64,000 nucleotides of DNA from Alphaproteobacteria bacterium. Lineage in GTDB: Bacteria; Pseudomonadota; Alphaproteobacteria; Methylaequorales; Methylaequoraceae. Shown in pieces: positions 5,155-27,024 of the stretch (positions within the stretch are counted from its first letter, which is position 1; every line of letters begins with the position of its first letter). The notes beneath the pieces were generated by a model, which saw only the letters and a program-made list of their open reading frames with translations, had not been told where the DNA came from and did no database searches. The stretch is from NCBI GenBank assembly GCA_045563055.1, contig JBJKUR010000012.1, positions 22,859 through 86,858 on the forward strand. The letters run 5' to 3'. The translations under genes were made by a program, and so were the position numbers.

Positions 5155-5199
5155 TATGGGATATTATGGGATTTTATGGAATTTACAACCACTTTTCAA
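5155..5199 (-). promoter_or_regulatory. Candidate mraZ promoter with three 10-bp-phased MraZ-box-like repeats
   Basis: The minus strand reads TTGAAA (5199-5194), a 17-nt spacer, then TAAAAT (5176-5171). On the plus strand, TATGGGAT, TATGGGAT and TATGGAAT have their TGGG/TGGA cores at 5157, 5167 and 5177, an exact 10-bp period overlapping and downstream of the -10. Confidence 0.45.
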
Positions 5200-5220
5200 C
5201 AAAAAAATTATACAATTATA

Positions 5221-5553
5221 CTAGATGGTCTGTAAGCCGGATTCTGTACCTAAAAAGGTTGTGACTATTAATCTTGAATTGCTGTTACCAACAATCTCTA
5301 GCGTCCCACCAAACCATTGTGCAGAGCCACACTTATTAGGCTATCTTGGACTTGCTCCCAAAGGGGTTTACAATGCCATTTTTGTTGCCAAAAACGCGGT
5401 GAGCTCTTACCCCACCATTTCAACCTTACCTTAAAAGGCGGTATATTTTCTGTTGCACTTTCCCTGAGGTTGCCCTCGCCGGGAATTACCCGGCTTTGGT
5501 GCTCTGATGAGTCCGGACTTTCCTCCTTAAAAGGCAGTCACACAACCATCTAG
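5221..5553 (-). ncRNA. rnpB: RNase P RNA (bacterial type A)
   Basis: The minus strand contains GGAGGAAAGTCCGGACTC (P4 5' strand) and ACAGAATCCGGCTTACAGACC (P4 3' strand). The termini TAGATGGT and ACCATCTA pair as P1. The region is locally GC-rich, and the two plus-strand ORFs listed here are artefacts. Confidence 0.85.
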
Positions 5554-6921: not shown

Positions 6922-8597
6922 TAAAAAAAATTCTGAAGTTTACTTTTTTTCTAACGGCTTCACTTATTTTAGTCTTAACACTTTCCCCTTTAATTCTTTT
7001 TGATAAGAAAGATGTAGTTAAGATAATAAATCAAAAGGTTAATGAGGAATTTAATTTAAATCTAAAATTTAATGAAGATATAAAAATTAATGTCTTTCCA
7101 TTTCCTAAAATAAAAATTTTAGATGTAAATTTCATAGATAAATCACTTGGTATTGAAGTTAAGTCAGAAAGTGTAAAGTTATCATCTAATTGGAGGACTC
7201 TTCTTAAACTAAAGCCTGAAATAGAAACTATTCAAATAAATAAACCTGAAATCTTTCTTACAAAAAAAAAATCTATATCTAAGCTAACATTAGTTAAAAA
7301 TGAAACTAGAAAGATAAAGATAGAAATATTTCAAAACCTTCTAGAAAAGTTTAAAAATATTAAAATCACAAATGGGAAAGTATTTTTTTTTATCTCTGGT
7401 GATAAAAATGAGCTTGATAATTTAAATTTTTCTGTTTCAAGTGAGGATGAAATTAAGGCTGAGCTAGAGTTCAACCATGTAAAATATAATTCCCTGATCA
7501 AAATTGATGCTAGTTCTAGAGAATTAAAAAAAATCGAATACAATATAAATCAACTTTTTAGTAATAGTAATGAAATATTTGGGTCAGGAATTTTAAATGT
7601 TAAAAACGATCAATTCTTTGTAAATGGAAACTTTAATAGCCAAAAGATTGATGTAAAACAGATTTTCGAGTTAGTTTCTCAACTGAATTTTTATGATAAA
7701 AAAAAAACTCAATTAGTGAGCACTAAAATTCCATCTCTGAACTTCGACTTTAATGTGGAGTTAGCTAATGTATCGTACAATAAATTAAAATTTAAAGATG
7801 TATCATCCAATATTTTAAAAAAAAGTAATGCGATATTTATCAAGGATTTAAGACTTAAATACCTAAAGTCGATGATGAAACTTGATGGAATATATTCTTA
7901 CAGCAACAAGAATTTCAATGGTGATTTAGCAATATATGATTTTTTTTATGAATCTCCAAAAATGGAATCTGATAAAATTTACCTTACCGATGCTTACTTT
8001 GACTGTGATGTTAAATTTAGTTTTACTAATTTAGCAAATCTTCAAAATATTTTGATCAACACTAAAGCCAAAGGCGAGTGTATAAACCAAAAATCCAGAT
8101 TAATAGGTGTGGATATTTCTGATTTAGTGAAGAGGGCAGATAATATTGAAACTTTCCAAGATTTCTTCAGTTTATTTAATAAAAATAAAATCAAAGGTTC
8201 ATCTGACATAGATTCGATCTCTTTAAATTTTAGATTAAATAAAGGAATTTTTACTCTCGATAATCTTCAAGCCGAGCAGAAAAATATGAGAATAAAATCA
8301 AAAGGTAACTACTCACTTTATAATGAAAAATTTAAAATTGACAATTCAGTTTATATCAGAACGAAAAAATTTAAAAACCTTCCTGAGTTTAATATTATAA
8401 TGAACGGCAATCCTGAGGATTATAATATTTCTTACGACTTTGAAAAAGTTAAAGACGCTTTACTCTCAGATGGTATAAATTCAATCTTAAAAAAAAAGAA
8501 AAAATTGACTTTGGATCCAAGTTCTTTGCAGAAAATAATAAAAAAAAAATCGAAGGAAATTGTGCCTGAAGATATTCTTGATCTATTTTTAGATTAA
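6918..8597 (+). CDS. AsmA-family outer-membrane biogenesis protein
   Basis: It has an N-terminal anchor followed by a long, repetitive, beta-rich region rich in N and K, which resembles an AsmA N-terminus. Its GTG start overlaps the upstream stop. Confidence 0.55.
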   Translation: MIKKILKFTFFLTASLILVLTLSPLILFDKKDVVKIINQKVNEEFNLNLKFNEDIKINVFPFPKIKILDVNFIDKSLGIEVKSESVKLSSNWRTLLKLKPEIETIQINKPEIFLTKKKSISKLTLVKNETRKIKIEIFQNLLEKFKNIKITNGKVFFFISGDKNELDNLNFSVSSEDEIKAELEFNHVKYNSLIKIDASSRELKKIEYNINQLFSNSNEIFGSGILNVKNDQFFVNGNFNSQKIDVKQIFELVSQLNFYDKKKTQLVSTKIPSLNFDFNVELANVSYNKLKFKDVSSNILKKSNAIFIKDLRLKYLKSMMKLDGIYSYSNKNFNGDLAIYDFFYESPKMESDKIYLTDAYFDCDVKFSFTNLANLQNILINTKAKGECINQKSRLIGVDISDLVKRADNIETFQDFFSLFNKNKIKGSSDIDSISLNFRLNKGIFTLDNLQAEQKNMRIKSKGNYSLYNEKFKIDNSVYIRTKKFKNLPEFNIIMNGNPEDYNISYDFEKVKDALLSDGINSILKKKKKLTLDPSSLQKIIKKKSKEIVPEDILDLFLD

Positions 8598-24573: not shown

Positions 24574-24912
24574 TATAAATACAGTTAATTATTATAACAT
24601 AACATACAAACTATAAATAATTTTTAAAAAATGAAAATAAAAAAAATCTAAGAAAAATTTTAACTTTACAGATAGTTAATGAAATAAATTTTATTCTAGT
24701 AAGAGGTAAAACAAACAAAAAAAGTGTGTCTTTTTAATCCAATTTCATAAACTACTACTGTACGAACTACTTTATTATCATGGTAATCTGAGAATAATTT
24801 ATTGTGGTCATTTCTTAAAAAAAACGAAGTGGAAATGAAGTTGATTGAAATGGATAAGGAAACATGAACTAATTTCTCTTTACTACAAAAATGTCAGAGA
24901 ATAGGCTTGTGT

Positions 24913-25062
24913 CTATGAACAGCAGTTTTCTGAATCGCTACAACATCCGTCTTTGCAACAACCACTGCTGCACTTTCCTGTTTCGCAACCATCACTACAA
25001 CAGCCATCTGCACAACAAGTGAACTTGCAACAAGTCTCTTCGATATTATTCATTTTAGTCAC
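24913..25062 (-). CDS. Unlisted Cys-rich small protein, metallothionein-like
   Basis: AAGGAG (25074-25069) lies 6 nt before a GTG at 25062, with an in-frame ATG at 25053. The peptide is MNNIEETCCKFTCCADGCCSDGCETGKCSSGCCKDGCCSDSENCCS, with 14 Cys in 46 aa, six of them as CC doublets. A promoter-like TTGATA-N16-TAAAAT lies at 25118-25091. Confidence 0.5.
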   Translation of the reverse strand: MTKMNNIEETCCKFTCCADGCCSDGCETGKCSSGCCKDGCCSDSENCCS

Positions 25063-25152
25063 TATAAACTCCTTTATTTTATTCAATTTAATTTTACTAT
25101 AAATTCAATAAGTATCAATTAAAAATACATTTTTTATCATTTATGAGTCTCT

Positions 25153-25204
25153 CTAAAACAAACAAGGGCGAACAATTGCCCGCCCTTGCCGATGAGACTT
25201 CTGT
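25153..25204. repeat. 52-bp perfect direct repeat, copy A (duplicate of the tmRNA gene 3' end and terminator)
   Basis: CTAAAACAAACAAGGGCGAACAATTGCCCGCCCTTGCCGATGAGACTTCTGT is identical to 26654-26705. Similarity continues imperfectly for about 10-25 nt on both sides. Confidence 0.9.
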
Positions 25205-25315
25205 GTCTCGGTGTATGGTCTAAGACCCTCTGTTTCTGGGGAGTTCTCAAAAAGTGTCTGTAAAAGTGTCTGTAAATTGAGGTCATTTTTTGCACGACTT
25301 CTGCACGGACTACTT
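25153..25315 (-). ncRNA. Candidate sRNA of about 160 nt ending in the tmRNA-type terminator
   Basis: A minus-strand promoter-like TTGAAC (25349-25344)-N16-TATTAT (25327-25322) lies upstream. The body contains a tandem 12-mer (ACAGACACTTTT twice) and small hairpins. The 3' end is CAAGGGCG-N10-CGCCCTTG followed by TTTGTTTT. The 77-aa ORF listed here runs through the terminator and looks non-coding. Confidence 0.3.
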
Positions 25316-25413
25316 TTTATCATAATAATCTGGGAACAGTTTAGTTCAATAAACAACCAAGTATTCATTTTCTGATTTACAGGCAATAATTGAAGATAAT
25401 TTTTAGTTCCAGA

Positions 25414-25845
25414 TTATTCCTTATTATCTTCTAAATAGACTCTATTTCCTCTAAGTGCAAAAAATAGTCCTCCACAATAAAGCATTACGTGAAAATTATC
25501 ATATAACAATACATCCAAAAAACTTTCTGGTTCTTGCATCAAAATAATACCTGTCATAATGCCACATATAACAATACCGCAGAACCTTGTTATTAATCCA
25601 CCATAACTATTAAGTTTTTTTGTTACTAACAATCCACCAATTAGCAACCCAATCCCTGAAAGAAGTTCTCCCCATGTAACAAAAAACCAGACGGTCATTG
25701 GCAAACCAAAAGATTCTGCATCAGAAATATTAAGAGGTAACTTTGATAATCCTTGCAAAATAAATACAACTGCAAGCGGGACTCTTATAAGAAAATTTGC
25801 ACCTTTGAAGTCTGGAATTTTTTTTAAAACACTTTTTATTGACAT
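25414..25845 (-). CDS. DoxX-family membrane protein
   Basis: It is 143 aa with four TM helices and a DoxX-like N-terminus (LIRVPLAVVFILQGLSKL). Confidence 0.55.
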   Translation of the reverse strand: MSIKSVLKKIPDFKGANFLIRVPLAVVFILQGLSKLPLNISDAESFGLPMTVWFFVTWGELLSGIGLLIGGLLVTKKLNSYGGLITRFCGIVICGIMTGIILMQEPESFLDVLLYDNFHVMLYCGGLFFALRGNRVYLEDNKE

Positions 25846-26314
25846 ATGTTATTTTGTTATATTAATGATGAAACAAACATTTGACTAGTTTTTCATTGTT
25901 TTTTAAAACTTACATCTGTTTAAAACTCTAGTTTTATACTGTACAATTTTGCAACATAAAATCATATAGACCAAATTACAATGACTACTAATAATTTTTC
26001 AGTAAAGGTGATTTTGATTAGTTTAGATAAATCCATAATAATAAGTGATAATTGGTATAGACATAAAAAATATATCCAGAGATTAATTTATTACTATATA
26101 AATAATGGCGTCTATACCAATTCCTTCCTTTTGCGAGTGGTTTAGGCGCTTTATTCTTTTATTTTCGCAATTTTAAAATAACAAACGAAGAATGTCTGTG
26201 TTTATTATCTGAGTATGTTCATTATTGAAAATTATAACAAATATACAGAAGATAAATTTCCAAAAAAATTAAAGATTTATTAAAATATAACTTTAACCTT
26301 TATTGGAGATACAC

Positions 26315-26476
26315 ATGAAAAATTTCTACTTTTTATTCTTCGCCTTAGCAATTTTAATTTCTTCTGAATCCATAAGAGCGGACGGACACGGAGAAAAAAA
26401 AGAAGTTGTAGAAGAAAAAACTGAAGATACTTCTGAAGAAAAAGAAGAAGAGTCAACAGAAGAAAAAAAAGAATAA
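26315..26476 (+). CDS. Unlisted 53-aa secreted acidic peptide
   Basis: GGAG precedes the ATG at 26315. The peptide is MKNFYFLFFALAILISSESIRA-DGHGEKKEVVEEKTEDTSEEKEEESTEEKKE, a signal peptide followed by an E/K-rich tail. A strong hairpin follows the gene. The listed antisense ORF 26280..26501 is a low-complexity shadow. Confidence 0.4.
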   Translation: MKNFYFLFFALAILISSESIRADGHGEKKEVVEEKTEDTSEEKEEESTEEKKE

Positions 26477-26488
26477 AATAAATTATAA

Positions 26489-26536
26489 TTGGTTCAAGCA
26501 AAATATCGTAATTTTTAATGCTTGAACCAATGTTTT
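26489..26536 (+). terminator. Hairpin terminator after the acidic-peptide ORF
   Basis: An 11-bp perfect inverted repeat, TTGGTTCAAGC (26489-26499) and GCTTGAACCAA (26520-26530), is followed by TGTTTT. Confidence 0.45.
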
Positions 26537-26653
26537 AAGATTAAAATAAATCTTTAAGAAAATAAGAACAAACAAAAGTGTGTTGCACTGAAATTGTCTT
26601 GTTTTCCCTATTTTTTTTAAGAGTGCATCCTCTGAAATCTCTTGAGAGTCTTC

Positions 26654-26705
26654 CTAAAACAAACAAGGGCGAACAATTGCCCGCCCTTGCCGATGAGACT
26701 TCTGT
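26654..26705. repeat. 52-bp perfect direct repeat, copy B (the 3' end of the tmRNA gene itself)
   Basis: It is identical to 25153-25204, offset by 1501 bp. Confidence 0.9.
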
Positions 26706-26940
26706 TGCCCGGTGTCATCATGACCGCGCTTTCTTAATTAATTAAGCAGCGAGTGCCATTTCATTATCGTTGGCAATTATAAAGTTTGGTCCGATAACGT
26801 TGGTACCATTCCGAGCAAAGTTTTGACCCATCCCACGCACGTCGATCCTATTTCGCCCCCATTGGTGGAGGCGCCGGGTACCGCCCCCGGGTCCGTATCG
26901 GTTCAAAATCAAACATTTATCGCCATAGCTGCAAAGCAGC
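26654..26940 (-). ncRNA. ssrA: tmRNA (ssrA), circularly permuted two-piece form; the 5' boundary is approximate
   Basis: The minus strand reads CCGGG-GGCGGTA-CCCGG (T-arm), then CGCCTCC-ACCA. After AT comes GGGGGCGAAATAGGATCGACG (5' acceptor strand and conserved GGAUCGACG). The two strands pair, including a G3:U70 wobble. The tag frame GCC AAC GAT AAT GAA ATG GCA CTC GCT GCT TAA gives ANDNEMALAA (26774->26742). The gene ends in a stem-loop plus TTTGTTTT. The acceptor piece preceding the coding piece matches the alphaproteobacterial permuted arrangement. Confidence 0.85.
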
Positions 26941-27024
26941 ATTTCAATCATAAATTATCTATAAAAAAATAAAACCAATAAATTGTTTTAATTAAAAAAT
27001 CAGTTATCCTCTATAATAAATTAA

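What the first reader, a model, noticed from the sequence alone, without database searches (positions are those of the whole stretch)
25145..26715. The tmRNA gene's 3' end is duplicated 1.5 kb away, bracketing an integrase-less islet
The last 52 nt of ssrA (26654-26705, including its terminator hairpin) recur perfectly at 25153-25204 in the same orientation. Similarity decays over about 10-25 nt on both flanks; for example ACACCGGGCAACAGAAG matches ACACCGAGACACAGAAG. Direct repeats of the ssrA 3' end are the classic footprint of site-specific integration at tmRNA genes. The 1449-bp segment between the copies carries a DoxX-family gene, a small secreted acidic peptide gene and an 11-bp inverted repeat, but no integrase. 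This suggests a decayed or minimal island, or a duplication maintained for another reason. The zinc/Cys-rich locus begins immediately beyond the distal copy.
Basis: partly seen in the sequence, partly recalled or inferred. Interest (0 to 1): 0.6.

Follow-up and report, generated by a model that had tools for sequence, protein, structure and literature searches.

The report
Integrase-less gene cassettes at tmRNA gene
The repeat is the scar of mobile DNA inserted into the end of the tmRNA gene: the window holds small integrase-less cassettes from a shuffling, order-wide array, and the missing integrase turns up in one related genome and in seawater metagenomes.

Summary
A 52-nt perfect direct repeat (79 nt at 89%) of the 3' end of a two-piece ssrA lies 1501 bp downstream, and the genome has no other copy.

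It is not a simple duplication. In 21 of the 42 species genomes of this marine alphaproteobacterial order, ssrA is followed by 0-6 cassettes of 0.26-4.3 kb. Each cassette ends in a roughly 330-nt att-like module, which has a P arm, a core (GAGAC-ACAGAA-GTCTC) and a P' arm. ssrA itself always carries GGGCAAC at the core position.

Cassette content and order differ between genomes. Identical cargo (98-99.6% nt) occurs in genera whose thyX genes are only 72-75% identical.

None of the 62 array loci first surveyed encodes a recombinase. However, 6.9-9.8-kb elements bounded by the same modules were later found in one relative and in metagenome contigs. They encode a roughly 397-aa tyrosine integrase whose stop codon abuts the P arm. 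Remnants of its last codons survive in integrase-less cassettes, including the window's (TKLFPDYYDKK*).

The window's islet is two fused cassettes (acidic peptide plus DoxX). The Cys-rich gene beyond it is a third, decayed cassette.

This is a new member of a known kind, with unexplained cassette-specific iterons.

The parts
26691..26978 (-). Two-piece (permuted) tmRNA gene ssrA. This is the integration target (attB side of attL).
   Evidence: Rfam RF01849 scores 200.8 bits, E = 9e-58. ARAGORN calls a permuted tmRNA with tag ANDNEMALAA.
26690..26715 (-). attL core ACACCGGGCAAC-AGAAG-TCTCATCGG. It has the ssrA-type left half (GGGCAAC) joined to the shared right half.
   Evidence: All 24 ssrA copies carry GGCAACAGAAG, and none of the 86 distal copies does.
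26654..26705 (-). Proximal copy of the 52-nt perfect repeat. It comprises the ssrA 3' end plus the terminator hairpin at 26666-26689.
26520..26653 (-). P' arm (ssrA-proximal end) of the first cassette. It holds the conserved ...GGGTTTCAGAGGATgCACTCTT...GGGAAAA... sequence and one iteron, GCAACACAC-TTTT-GTTTGTTC (plus strand 26566-26586).
   Evidence: The module profile matches ssrA end plus P' arm at window 26715-26524, E = 2e-42. See also the alignments.
26303..26476 (+). Cargo 1: a secreted, extremely acidic 53-57-aa peptide gene, with its own terminator hairpin at 26491-26531.
   Evidence: ORF and hairpin. The same cassette stands alone (~0.85-0.9 kb) in L037, L041 and L042. Metatranscriptome contigs match exactly at 26303-26659, and other contigs over the gene reach depth 110-160.
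25926..25968 (.). Fusion junction. Homology to the stand-alone acidic-peptide cassette ends here and homology to the stand-alone DoxX cassette begins. The ~0.5-kb att module (P arm, core, terminator, P' arm) that separates the two in relatives is missing.
   Evidence: BLAST and MAFFT comparison against L035, L037, L039 and L042.
25414..25845 (-). Cargo 2: a DoxX-family membrane protein gene.
   Evidence: Pfam PF07681, E = 9e-7. It recurs as a cassette in 10 other loci. It is 93% nt identical to L040, whose thyX is 74% identical.
25311..25346 (-). Remnant of the 3' end of the integrase gene: ACT AAA CTG TTC CCA GAT TAT TAT GAT AAA AAG TAG = TKLFPDYYDKK*.
   Evidence: It matches the C-terminus of the element integrase (P0019 ends ...KLFPDYYDKK). 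The same remnant was seen at >=14 of 73 distal sites.
25215..25312 (-). P arm of the DoxX cassette. It holds AGTCCGTGCAGAAGTCGTGCA (a direct repeat of CGTGCAGAA), two tandem iterons ACAGACAC-TTTT (plus strand 25250-25273), a CCC-N10-GGG motif and the GGTCTTAGACC palindrome.
   Evidence: The module profile matches window 25370-25080, E = 2.6e-75. See also the alignments. The P arm is found in 21 of 42 genomes of the order, and every listed hit lies on an ssrA-array contig.
25189..25214 (-). attR core ACACCGAGAC-ACAGAA-GTCTCATCGG. It is the attP-type perfect 5-bp inverted repeat around a 6-nt spacer.
   Evidence: 69 of 86 distal sites have exactly GAGACACAGAAG (the metagenome loci were selected with this word). 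The rest are decayed variants.
25153..25204 (-). Distal copy of the 52-nt perfect repeat, including the terminator hairpin at 25165-25188. It also serves as the terminator downstream of DoxX.
24913..25086 (-). Cargo 3 (older cassette): a Cys-rich, metallothionein-like peptide gene.
   Evidence: ORF. It lies between attR and a decayed P-arm remnant.
24721..24813 (-). Decayed distal end of the third cassette: an int 3' remnant plus the start of a P arm (AAATGACCACAATAAATTATTCTCAGATTACCATGATAATAAAGTAGTTCGTACAG...). The core and terminator are lost.
   Evidence: This was the only other nhmmer hit to the module profile in the genome, E = 1.3e-3. Equivalent 33-nt remnants lie ~400 nt beyond the last repeat in other genomes of the genus.

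Best explanation
The two copies are attL and attR of DNA that integrated site-specifically into the 3' end of the two-piece tmRNA gene.

A family of 7-10-kb integrative elements in this alphaproteobacterial order encodes a ~397-aa tyrosine integrase. These elements carry a ~330-nt attP made of three parts:
- a P arm with two tandem iterons;
- a core, GAGAC-ACAGAA-GTCTC;
- a replacement ssrA 3' end with terminator, followed by a P' arm with 1-3 iterons.

Strand exchange in or just after ACAGAAG joins the element's replacement 3' end to ssrA and displaces the previous 3' end to the far side of the insert. This step is inferred from the sequence pattern. Repeated insertion next to ssrA builds a tandem array. 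Internal deletions then remove int and most element genes, leaving 0.3-4-kb cassettes of cargo that keep both att arms.

The window shows three such insertions:
- the Cys-rich peptide cassette, which is the oldest and has a decayed distal site;
- the DoxX cassette, which still has 11 codons of int;
- the acidic-peptide cassette, which is nearest to ssrA.
A ~0.5-kb deletion later fused the last two.

The genome has no cognate integrase, so the islet cannot move by itself. Its attL and attR are intact. I infer, but have not shown, that it could be excised as a 1501-bp circle and moved by an integrase supplied in trans by an incoming element. Homologous recombination between the ~330-nt modules is a second route for exchange.
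For: Shown:
1. The repeat is real, and the genome has only these two copies.
2. Arrays of 0-6 distal copies follow ssrA between conserved flanks (degP-hflCK-mrp-thyX upstream; the zur/ABC locus downstream). Cargo and order vary between genomes.
3. All 24 ssrA copies have GGGCAAC at the core. None of the 86 distal copies does, and 69 have GAGACAC, which forms a perfect inverted repeat with GTCTC.
4. Distal copies share ~100 nt of P arm that ssrA lacks. ssrA and all non-terminal copies are followed by a shared P' arm, while terminal copies run into native flank.
5. The P' and P arms of the same cassette share their variable iteron in 11 of 49 cassettes, against 2.4 +/- 1.4 in shuffles (p <= 5e-5). 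Arms flanking the same site match in only 4 of 72.
6. Cargo moves between genera. The PhoD-like cassette is 98-99.6% nt identical where thyX is 72-74%. The 387-aa Cys-rich protein cassette is 98% against 75%. DoxX is 93% against 74%.
7. Elements of 6.9-9.8 kb, bounded by ssrA or a distal copy on one side and a distal copy on the other, occur in G029 and in metagenome contigs L145, L146 and L153-L155 (module profile E down to 1e-103). Each carries a tyrosine integrase (PHROG_1, E = 2e-25; weak PF00589) at a constant position. The distance from its start codon to the core is 1288-1344 nt at all Int N-termini mapped next to a detected core (9 tblastn rows).
8. The int stop codon TAG overlaps the first bases of the P arm. 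C-terminal int remnants precede the P arm in integrase-less cassettes of six other genomes and at >=14 of 73 sites, including the window.
Against: - No excised circle or empty-site junction was seen. The public runs that hold the islet are kept as short unitigs that break at the repeat.
- No virgin attB was found in any genome.
- An intact integrase is present in only 1 of 42 species genomes, and none is in the window's genome. Mobilisation in trans is therefore an inference.
- The integrase family is absent from IMG/VR contigs, so the transfer vehicle is unknown.
- The cassette-specific iterons are not explained. In the few elements available, the integrase N-terminal sequence does not visibly track iteron type.
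- Several metagenome contigs that carry the elements are long-read assemblies with frameshifts.
Confidence: 0.85

Rival explanations
1. This is an additive island maintained only by homologous recombination. The ~330-nt modules act as portable homology, cassettes are gained, lost and swapped by RecA after DNA uptake, and no site-specific recombinase acts today.
For: 41 of 42 genomes lack the integrase. The modules are long and 80-95% identical. Fused and reshuffled cassettes, and mismatched P'/P iterons in about half of the cassettes, show recombination or deletion inside arrays. Authors working on similar streamlined bacterioplankton favour homologous recombination (PMC10734472; bioRxiv 10.64898/2026.10.07.757358).
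Against: This does not explain the origin of the modules, the absolute ssrA-type versus attP-type core split, the int remnants or the integrase-bearing elements with the same arms. It is best seen as a second process acting on arrays that integration built.
Confidence: 0.3
2. This is an ancient, fixed duplication of the ssrA terminator region, kept because it terminates the DoxX gene or insulates the zinc locus.
For: The distal copy does sit 210 nt downstream of DoxX in the sense orientation, and it contains an intact terminator hairpin.
Against: Copy number (0-6), spacing and intervening genes all vary among relatives. The copies carry non-ssrA arms and a non-ssrA core variant. Cargo phylogeny conflicts with core genes.
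Confidence: 0.02
3. The distal module is a small-RNA gene family (promoter, ~160-190-nt transcript, ssrA-like terminator) that happens to share the tmRNA 3' module.
For: A -10-like TATTAT/TATGAT sits ~8 nt upstream of the conserved block, and the terminator is intact. A metatranscriptome contig covers 25243-25491.
Against: The '-10' is the codons YYD/YYG of the integrase C-terminus. That RNA contig is continuous with the DoxX 3' end. RNAalifold finds no consensus structure over the last ~54 nt of the P arm across 60 distinct copies. Rfam finds nothing there at E <= 1.
Confidence: 0.05
4. This is an integron-like system: a dedicated chromosomal recombinase next to the array captures promoterless cassettes at an attI-like site.
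For: The tandem array of short cassettes separated by a structured repeat looks superficially like an integron.
Against: No recombinase gene flanks the array in any of 21 genomes; the flanks are thyX/mrp and zur/ABC. Cargo lies in both orientations and often has its own promoter and terminator. The repeat is a lambda-type attP with arms, not an attC.
Confidence: 0.03

Closest known systems
tRNA/tmRNA-gene-targeting genomic islands and prophages mobilised by tyrosine integrases (as defined for the Islander database, PMC4383910)
   Same: The target gene is intact at one end. A displaced 3' fragment lies in direct orientation at the other end. The element supplies a replacement 3' end. Tandem arrays occur at one target. 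The integrase gene sits next to the att site in the full-length elements.
   Different: The window's islands have no integrase, so Islander's filter would reject them. The target is the 3' end of a permuted two-piece ssrA, that is, the end of the coding piece plus terminator, not the tRNA-like T-loop or acceptor end. The integrase is divergent: it scores below Pfam PF00589's cut-off and has no solved relative.
CIMEs (cis-mobilisable elements: att-flanked, recombinase-less derivatives of integrative elements, described in streptococci). This comparison rests on my own knowledge.
   Same: Both are flanked by functional-looking attL/attR of a cognate integrative element, lack int/xis, derive from the autonomous element by deletion, and lie in tandem (accretion) with it.
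   Different: Mobilisation in trans is untested here. These cassettes are much smaller (0.3-4 kb) and far more numerous than the autonomous element.
Additive flexible genomic islands and tycheposon-type islands of streamlined aquatic bacteria (Methylophilaceae fGI-2, PMC10872708; SAR11 gMED islands, PMC11796062; Prochlorococcus tycheposons, from my own knowledge of Hackl et al. 2023)
   Same: The islands lie next to a tRNA or tmRNA gene and contain recurring partial repeats of its 3' end that mark cassette insertions. Cargo consists of niche and defence genes, and integrases are rare or absent.
   Different: The repeat here is a ~330-nt composite module with conserved arms and iterons, not a ~20-50-nt tDNA fragment. 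The cognate integrase and the deletion origin of the cassettes could be traced. No replication module was recognised in the full-length element.
Phage lambda attP architecture (my own knowledge)
   Same: A core with inverted core-type sites around a short overlap is flanked by arms that carry direct-repeat sites: two in the P arm and up to three tandem sites in the P' arm. Total size is ~250-330 bp.
   Different: The iterons vary between cassettes yet are identical among copies and often between the two arms of one cassette. Integrase binding to them is untested.
Integron gene-cassette arrays
   Same: Both are tandem arrays of short, shuffling cassettes at one chromosomal site, with new cassettes expected at the proximal end.
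   Different: There is no adjacent intI, attI or Pc and no attC-type sites. Cargo lies in mixed orientation and is self-expressed.

Membership tests
tDNA-targeting integrative genomic island (Islander-type definition) | Intact tRNA/tmRNA gene at one boundary | tested here: met
   RF01849 scores 200.8 bits over the full model, positions 1-355.
tDNA-targeting integrative genomic island (Islander-type definition) | Direct-orientation fragment of the gene's 3' end at the other boundary | tested here: met
   A 52-nt perfect repeat (79 nt at 89%) in the same orientation, with 0 expected by chance.
tDNA-targeting integrative genomic island (Islander-type definition) | Tyrosine integrase gene inside the island | tested here: not met
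   There is none in the window's islet or anywhere else in the genome apart from Xer-type genes. Only 11 terminal codons remain. The feature is met in the full-length relatives L132, L145, L146 and L153-155.
tDNA-targeting integrative genomic island (Islander-type definition) | Presence or absence and content vary among related genomes | tested here: met
   0-6 cassettes with different cargo and order occur in 21 genomes. Cargo identity conflicts with core identity.
CIME-like cis-mobilisable derivative | Flanked by the att sites of a cognate autonomous element and lacking its recombination genes | tested here: met
   The same module profile hits the boundaries of integrase-bearing elements (E 1e-77 to 1e-103) and of integrase-less cassettes.
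CIME-like cis-mobilisable derivative | Derived from the autonomous element by deletion | tested here: met
   int C-terminal remnants of varying length (8 to >20 codons) abut the P arm.
CIME-like cis-mobilisable derivative | Excised or transferred when the autonomous element supplies integrase in trans | not testable with these tools
   There is only indirect support: near-identical cassettes in different genera and array positions and matched arms.
Integron | intI gene with attI and Pc adjacent to the array | tested here: not met
   The array flanks are thyX/mrp/hflKC and zur/ABC. No recombinase is encoded on the array loci.
Integron | attC sites (imperfect palindromes R''-L''...L'-R') between cassettes | tested here: not met
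   The inter-cassette module is ~330 nt with a core, a terminator and asymmetric arms. No consensus fold was found for the P-arm segment tested.
Tycheposon (as I recall the definition: tRNA/tmRNA-adjacent, integrase plus replication module plus cargo) | Integrase next to a tDNA-derived att site, with cargo genes | tested here: met
   This holds for the full-length elements only.
Tycheposon (as I recall the definition: tRNA/tmRNA-adjacent, integrase plus replication module plus cargo) | Replication module (primase/helicase-type) | tested here: inconclusive
   Ten ORFs of the G029 element gave no Pfam or PHROG hit other than the serine recombinase.

The most novel reading that the evidence does not exclude
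The integrase-less cassettes may not be mere wreckage. They may be the normal working units of an integron-like gene-exchange system, in which a rare helper element supplies the integrase in trans. In that reading, the variable iterons, which match between the two arms of a cassette (two in P, up to three in P'), act as a specificity code. The code would decide which integrase variant can mobilise which cassette and would ensure that the two ends of the same cassette are paired at excision.
Probability: 0.25. Interest if true: 0.75.

Novelty: new member of a known kind. Interest (0 to 1): 0.55.

Why it matters
Studies of streamlined marine bacterioplankton repeatedly report flexible islands next to tRNA or tmRNA genes that have 'no canonical mobile elements'. 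They leave the mechanism open or assign it to homologous recombination (PMC11796062, PMC10734472, bioRxiv 10.64898/2026.10.07.757358).

In this lineage the missing machinery can be named. A divergent tyrosine integrase is intact in only 1 of 42 species genomes, but it recurs in ocean metagenomes. Its att module and gene remnants mark dozens of integrase-less cassettes. The cassettes carry restriction-modification systems, phosphatases, envelope enzymes and small secreted or metal-binding peptides.

This gives a concrete, testable model for how such cells trade single genes. It also supplies a defined attP/attB/integrase trio that could be reconstituted in E. coli. The co-varying arm iterons are an unexplained feature worth a direct binding test.

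Tried and rejected
1. Phage origin. The attP-type core, the shared core, the P-arm word and the integrase protein all gave no hit in IMG/VR viral contigs.
2. Reads across the junctions. DNA runs holding the islet are stored as unitigs that end in the repeat. No empty-site or circle joint was seen, and one odd joint (26290 to 25073) looked like a low-complexity artefact.
3. Small-RNA reading of the P arm. It was rejected because the supposed -10 box is integrase codons and no consensus fold exists.
4. XerCD as the recombinase. The core has no resemblance to a dif-type site (by inspection). The Xer genes are the only universal tyrosine recombinases in the order.
5. Serine recombinase as the integrase. 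A 196-233-aa resolvase/invertase-type gene rides in the full-length elements. However, the gene abutting the att arm is the tyrosine integrase, so the serine enzyme is more likely an internal invertase or resolvase.
6. My first guess that ACAGACATTCTTCGTTTGTT (26199-26180) was the DoxX cassette's P' remnant was wrong. It lies inside the acidic-peptide cassette.
7. L146 as an excised circle. Its ends do not overlap, so it is better read as two elements in tandem.
8. Correlating integrase N-terminal variants with iteron types. There were too few elements, with frameshifts, and no pattern emerged.
9. Naming the taxon. Records are titled only 'uncultured Alphaproteobacteria' or 'Rickettsiales bacterium'. 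The order has 42 species genomes in one family. HIMB59/AEGEAN-169 papers did not list these SAG ids.
Full report
**Observation.** The 52-mer occurs exactly twice in the window, at 25153-25204 and 26654-26705, with none expected in shuffles. It extends to 79 nt at 89% identity with 1501-bp spacing, and the 1.43-Mb assembly has no further copy. The upstream copy ends a two-piece alphaproteobacterial tmRNA gene on the minus strand (RF01849, 200.8 bits, 26978..26691; ARAGORN permuted tmRNA). The repeat comprises the last bases of the gene, its terminator hairpin and a few bases beyond. Between the copies lie a DoxX-family gene and a small acidic secreted-peptide gene with an 11-bp-stem terminator. 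There is no recombinase.

**Comparative picture.** A search with ssrA in relatives showed that many genomes of the same family carry two to seven hits, the extra ones matching only query positions ~266-339. I fetched 20 loci and oriented them on ssrA.
- The upstream genes are invariant (degP-hflC-hflK-mrp-thyX-ssrA).
- A conserved block follows downstream (a 93-aa membrane protein, the Cys-rich peptide, zur, DUF3299, FtsX/ABC and more).
- Between these flanks lies an array of 0-6 units, each closed by a distal repeat 'R'.
- Unit length is 264-4274 nt, with a median of 1438.
- The same cargo recurs in different genomes at different positions and in different combinations. DoxX occurs in 11 loci. 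The acidic peptide stands alone as a 0.85-0.9-kb unit in L037, L041 and L042. DoxX and the acidic peptide are two separate units in L035.
- Pfam-supported cargo includes three type II restriction-modification pairs (MvaI/BcnI, SacI and Tsp45I endonucleases with C5 or N6/N4 methylases). It also includes a PhoD-like phosphatase, FkbM methyltransferases, a MetA-pathway-type outer-membrane channel, an AT3-SGNH acyltransferase and a formyltransferase.

**The repeat is a composite att-like module, not a copy of ssrA.**
- *Core.* All 24 ssrA copies read CCGGGCAAC-AGAAG at the left edge. None of the 86 distal copies does, and 69 read CCGAGACAC-AGAAG. The metagenome loci were selected with that word, but the split also holds in the 21 genome-derived loci. 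With the following GTCTC this makes a perfect 5-bp inverted repeat around a 6-nt spacer (GAGAC-ACAGAA-GTCTC). That is the usual shape of a tyrosine-recombinase core, and it is better formed in the attP-type copy than in the attB-type copy.
- *P arm.* Distal copies share about 100 nt to the left that has no counterpart in ssrA. Its elements are AGTCCGTGCAGAAGTCGTGCAGAAAA, two tandem 'iterons' (an 8-9-mer NCANNCAC followed by T3-4), a CCC-N10-GGG motif and GGTCTTAGACC.
- *P' arm.* ssrA and every non-terminal distal copy are followed by a shared ~130-190-nt right arm. It ends in one to three tandem iterons and TTTTGTTTGTTC. The last copy of each array leaves this consensus soon after the terminator and runs into native flank.

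This is the pattern expected if circles carrying P-core-P' recombine with ssrA at or just after ACAGAAG. ssrA then always keeps its own left half and receives the newcomer's P' side, and each older 3' end is pushed outward behind the newcomer's P arm.

**Iterons.** The variable 8-9-mers are identical among tandem copies but differ between cassettes (GCAGACAC, ACAGACAC, GCACACAC, TCAATACAC, GCAACGCAC, GCGACCCAC and others). The P' arm and P arm of the same cassette share an identical string of at least 11 nt spanning the iteron in 11 of 49 cassettes. Shuffled pairings gave 2.4 +/- 1.4, with a maximum of 9 in 20,000 (p <= 5e-5). The arms on either side of one site match in only 4 of 72. Cassettes therefore behave as discrete units with matched ends, as they would if each had been a circle with one complete attP. 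What reads the iterons is not known. Two sites in P and up to three in P' recall lambda's arm-type sites (my own knowledge). In the few full-length elements available, however, the integrase N-terminus does not visibly track iteron type.

**Horizontal movement.** Nucleotide identity of cargo conflicts with that of flanking core genes.

| Cargo | Genomes compared | Cargo identity | thyX identity |
|---|---|---|---|
| PhoD-like gene | different genera | 98.0-99.6% | 72-74% |
| 387-aa Cys-rich protein gene | different genera | 98.0% | 75% |
| DoxX | window vs L040 | 93% | 74% |
| DoxX | two genomes | 87% | 96% |

**The recombinase.**
- No ORF in the 62 array loci first surveyed resembles a tyrosine recombinase (six-frame scan, E <= 10, profile built from the family's own Xer and phage-type integrases).
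- Genomes of the order have XerC and XerD plus sporadic unrelated integrases on other contigs.
- A scan for serine recombinases found one in G029, about 5.6 kb downstream of ssrA. That locus starts with a canonical P' arm carrying three CAATACAC iterons. It runs through about a dozen ORFs without family hits plus a resolvase/invertase-type gene. At the contig edge it ends in a 371-aa open frame with integrase motifs.
- Homologues of both proteins led to metagenome contigs in which the element is bounded on both sides. L145 has the ssrA core and a full distal module 6.9 kb apart. In L153 the spacing is 9.8 kb, inside a 497-kb contig next to thyX. L154 and L155 hold two or three such elements in tandem.
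- The ~397-aa protein matches PHROG_1 'integrase' (E = 2e-25). It matches Pfam PF00589 and Phage_int_M only weakly and has no solved relative.
- Its start codon lies 1288-1344 nt from the core at all Int N-termini mapped next to a detected core (9 tblastn rows).
- Its stop codon is the TAG of ...AAG TAG TCC GTG CAG, so the gene ends where the P arm begins.

**Integrase-less cassettes are deletion derivatives.** An intact integrase occurs in one of the 42 species genomes. Fragments of its last 24-80 residues lie just upstream of P arms in integrase-less cassettes of G007, G014, G016, G022, G025 and G027, and at 14 or more of 73 distal sites overall. In the window the minus strand at 25346-25311 reads TKLFPDYYDKK*, and P0019 ends KLFPDYYDKK. 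This also explains the '-10-like' TATTAT/TATGAT noted earlier: it is the codons for YYD.

**Anatomy of the window.**
- *Module hits.* A profile of the module finds only three places in the genome: the distal site (25370-25080), the ssrA end with its P' arm (26715-24), and a weak hit at 24813-24721. The weak hit (E = 1.3e-3) lies between the Cys-rich gene and zur. It reads as a decayed int-end plus the start of a P arm.
- *Third cassette.* Equivalent 33-nt remnants lie ~400 nt beyond the last repeat in other genomes of the genus. The Cys-rich peptide gene is therefore an older cassette whose distal core has been lost.
- *Fusion.* Within the islet, homology to stand-alone acidic-peptide cassettes runs from 26715 to about 25968. 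Homology to stand-alone DoxX cassettes runs from about 25940 to 25140. The ~0.5-kb module that separates them in L035 is absent.

**Distribution and context.**
- The order has 42 species genomes in one family and 14 genera. The P arm, which is not part of ssrA, is present in 21 of them (7 genera), and every listed hit lies on an ssrA-array contig.
- The attP-type core word occurs in 16 stretches of genome contigs titled 'uncultured Alphaproteobacteria' or 'Rickettsiales bacterium' and in 37 marine metagenome contigs.
- At least 20 marine metagenome runs hold the window's islet nearly identically.
- Metatranscriptome contigs show that the acidic-peptide gene and the DoxX 3' end with its P arm are transcribed.

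**What is shown and what is inferred.**
- *Shown:* the repeat; the variable arrays; the composite module and its ssrA-type versus attP-type split; matched arms; inter-genus near-identity of cargo; integrase-bearing elements with the same module; and int remnants in integrase-less cassettes.
- *Inferred:* the crossover position; the order of the three insertions in the window; and mobilisation of integrase-less cassettes by an integrase supplied in trans.

Homologous recombination between modules surely also acts, as fusions and mismatched arms show. It may be the main route of exchange today.

**Comparison with known systems.** The system works like the classic tDNA-targeting integrative islands (PMC4383910). 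Its integrase-less units correspond to cis-mobilisable derivatives and to the cassettes of 'additive' flexible islands marked by partial tRNA repeats in other streamlined aquatic bacteria (PMC10872708, PMC11796062). It is not an integron, because there is no adjacent intI, attI or attC. I file it as a new member of a known kind. The co-varying iterons and the sheer dominance of integrase-less units over the autonomous element are its unusual features.

Noticed in passing
window 24721-25086: The Cys-rich, metallothionein-like peptide gene next to zur lies between the distal ssrA repeat and a decayed int-end/P-arm remnant (24813-24721). It therefore looks like an old, fixed cassette rather than an original member of the zinc locus.
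   Followed up: partly
window 26303-26660: The small acidic secreted-peptide gene is well represented in metatranscriptomes. One contig matches 26303-26659 exactly, and other contigs over the gene reach depths of 110-160, far above the DoxX region (2-15). The gene recurs as a stand-alone cassette in many genomes, and its function is unknown.
   Followed up: partly
L132 (G029:C7) 1147-1180, 2427-2460, 5195-5228 and 8500-8535: The integrase-bearing element contains four copies of a ~34-nt motif (AATCAAAAATAGGGTGTTCCCCCAGTTGTGCATA). One copy lies directly upstream of the serine recombinase gene and one at the end of the P' arm. Similar TATATGCAAC-TGGG..AACAC sequences end the P' arms of several cassettes. 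These are possibly promoters or sites for the serine recombinase.
   Followed up: no
L154 and L155 (metagenome contigs): Two or three integrase-bearing elements sit in tandem, each with its own integrase, serine recombinase and att module. This shows that accretion at ssrA also happens with full-length elements.
   Followed up: partly
G000 contig C3:4-246: A partial tyrosine recombinase sits at a contig edge. It is a close relative of the genome's own XerC/D-type gene (phmmer E = 3e-49), so it is probably a duplicate or a contaminating strain, not a phage-type integrase.
   Followed up: partly
L089 283-5142 (metagenome contig): A single 1619-aa ORF fills one cassette. By eye it has helicase and N6-methyltransferase motifs like a type ISP/IIG restriction enzyme. 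It was not checked against Pfam.
   Followed up: no
all ssrA loci: No genome shows a 'virgin' ssrA downstream region. Every ssrA, even where no distal repeat is detectable (for example L048, L049, L051), is followed by a P'-type arm. Every lineage sampled has therefore been hit at least once.
   Followed up: partly
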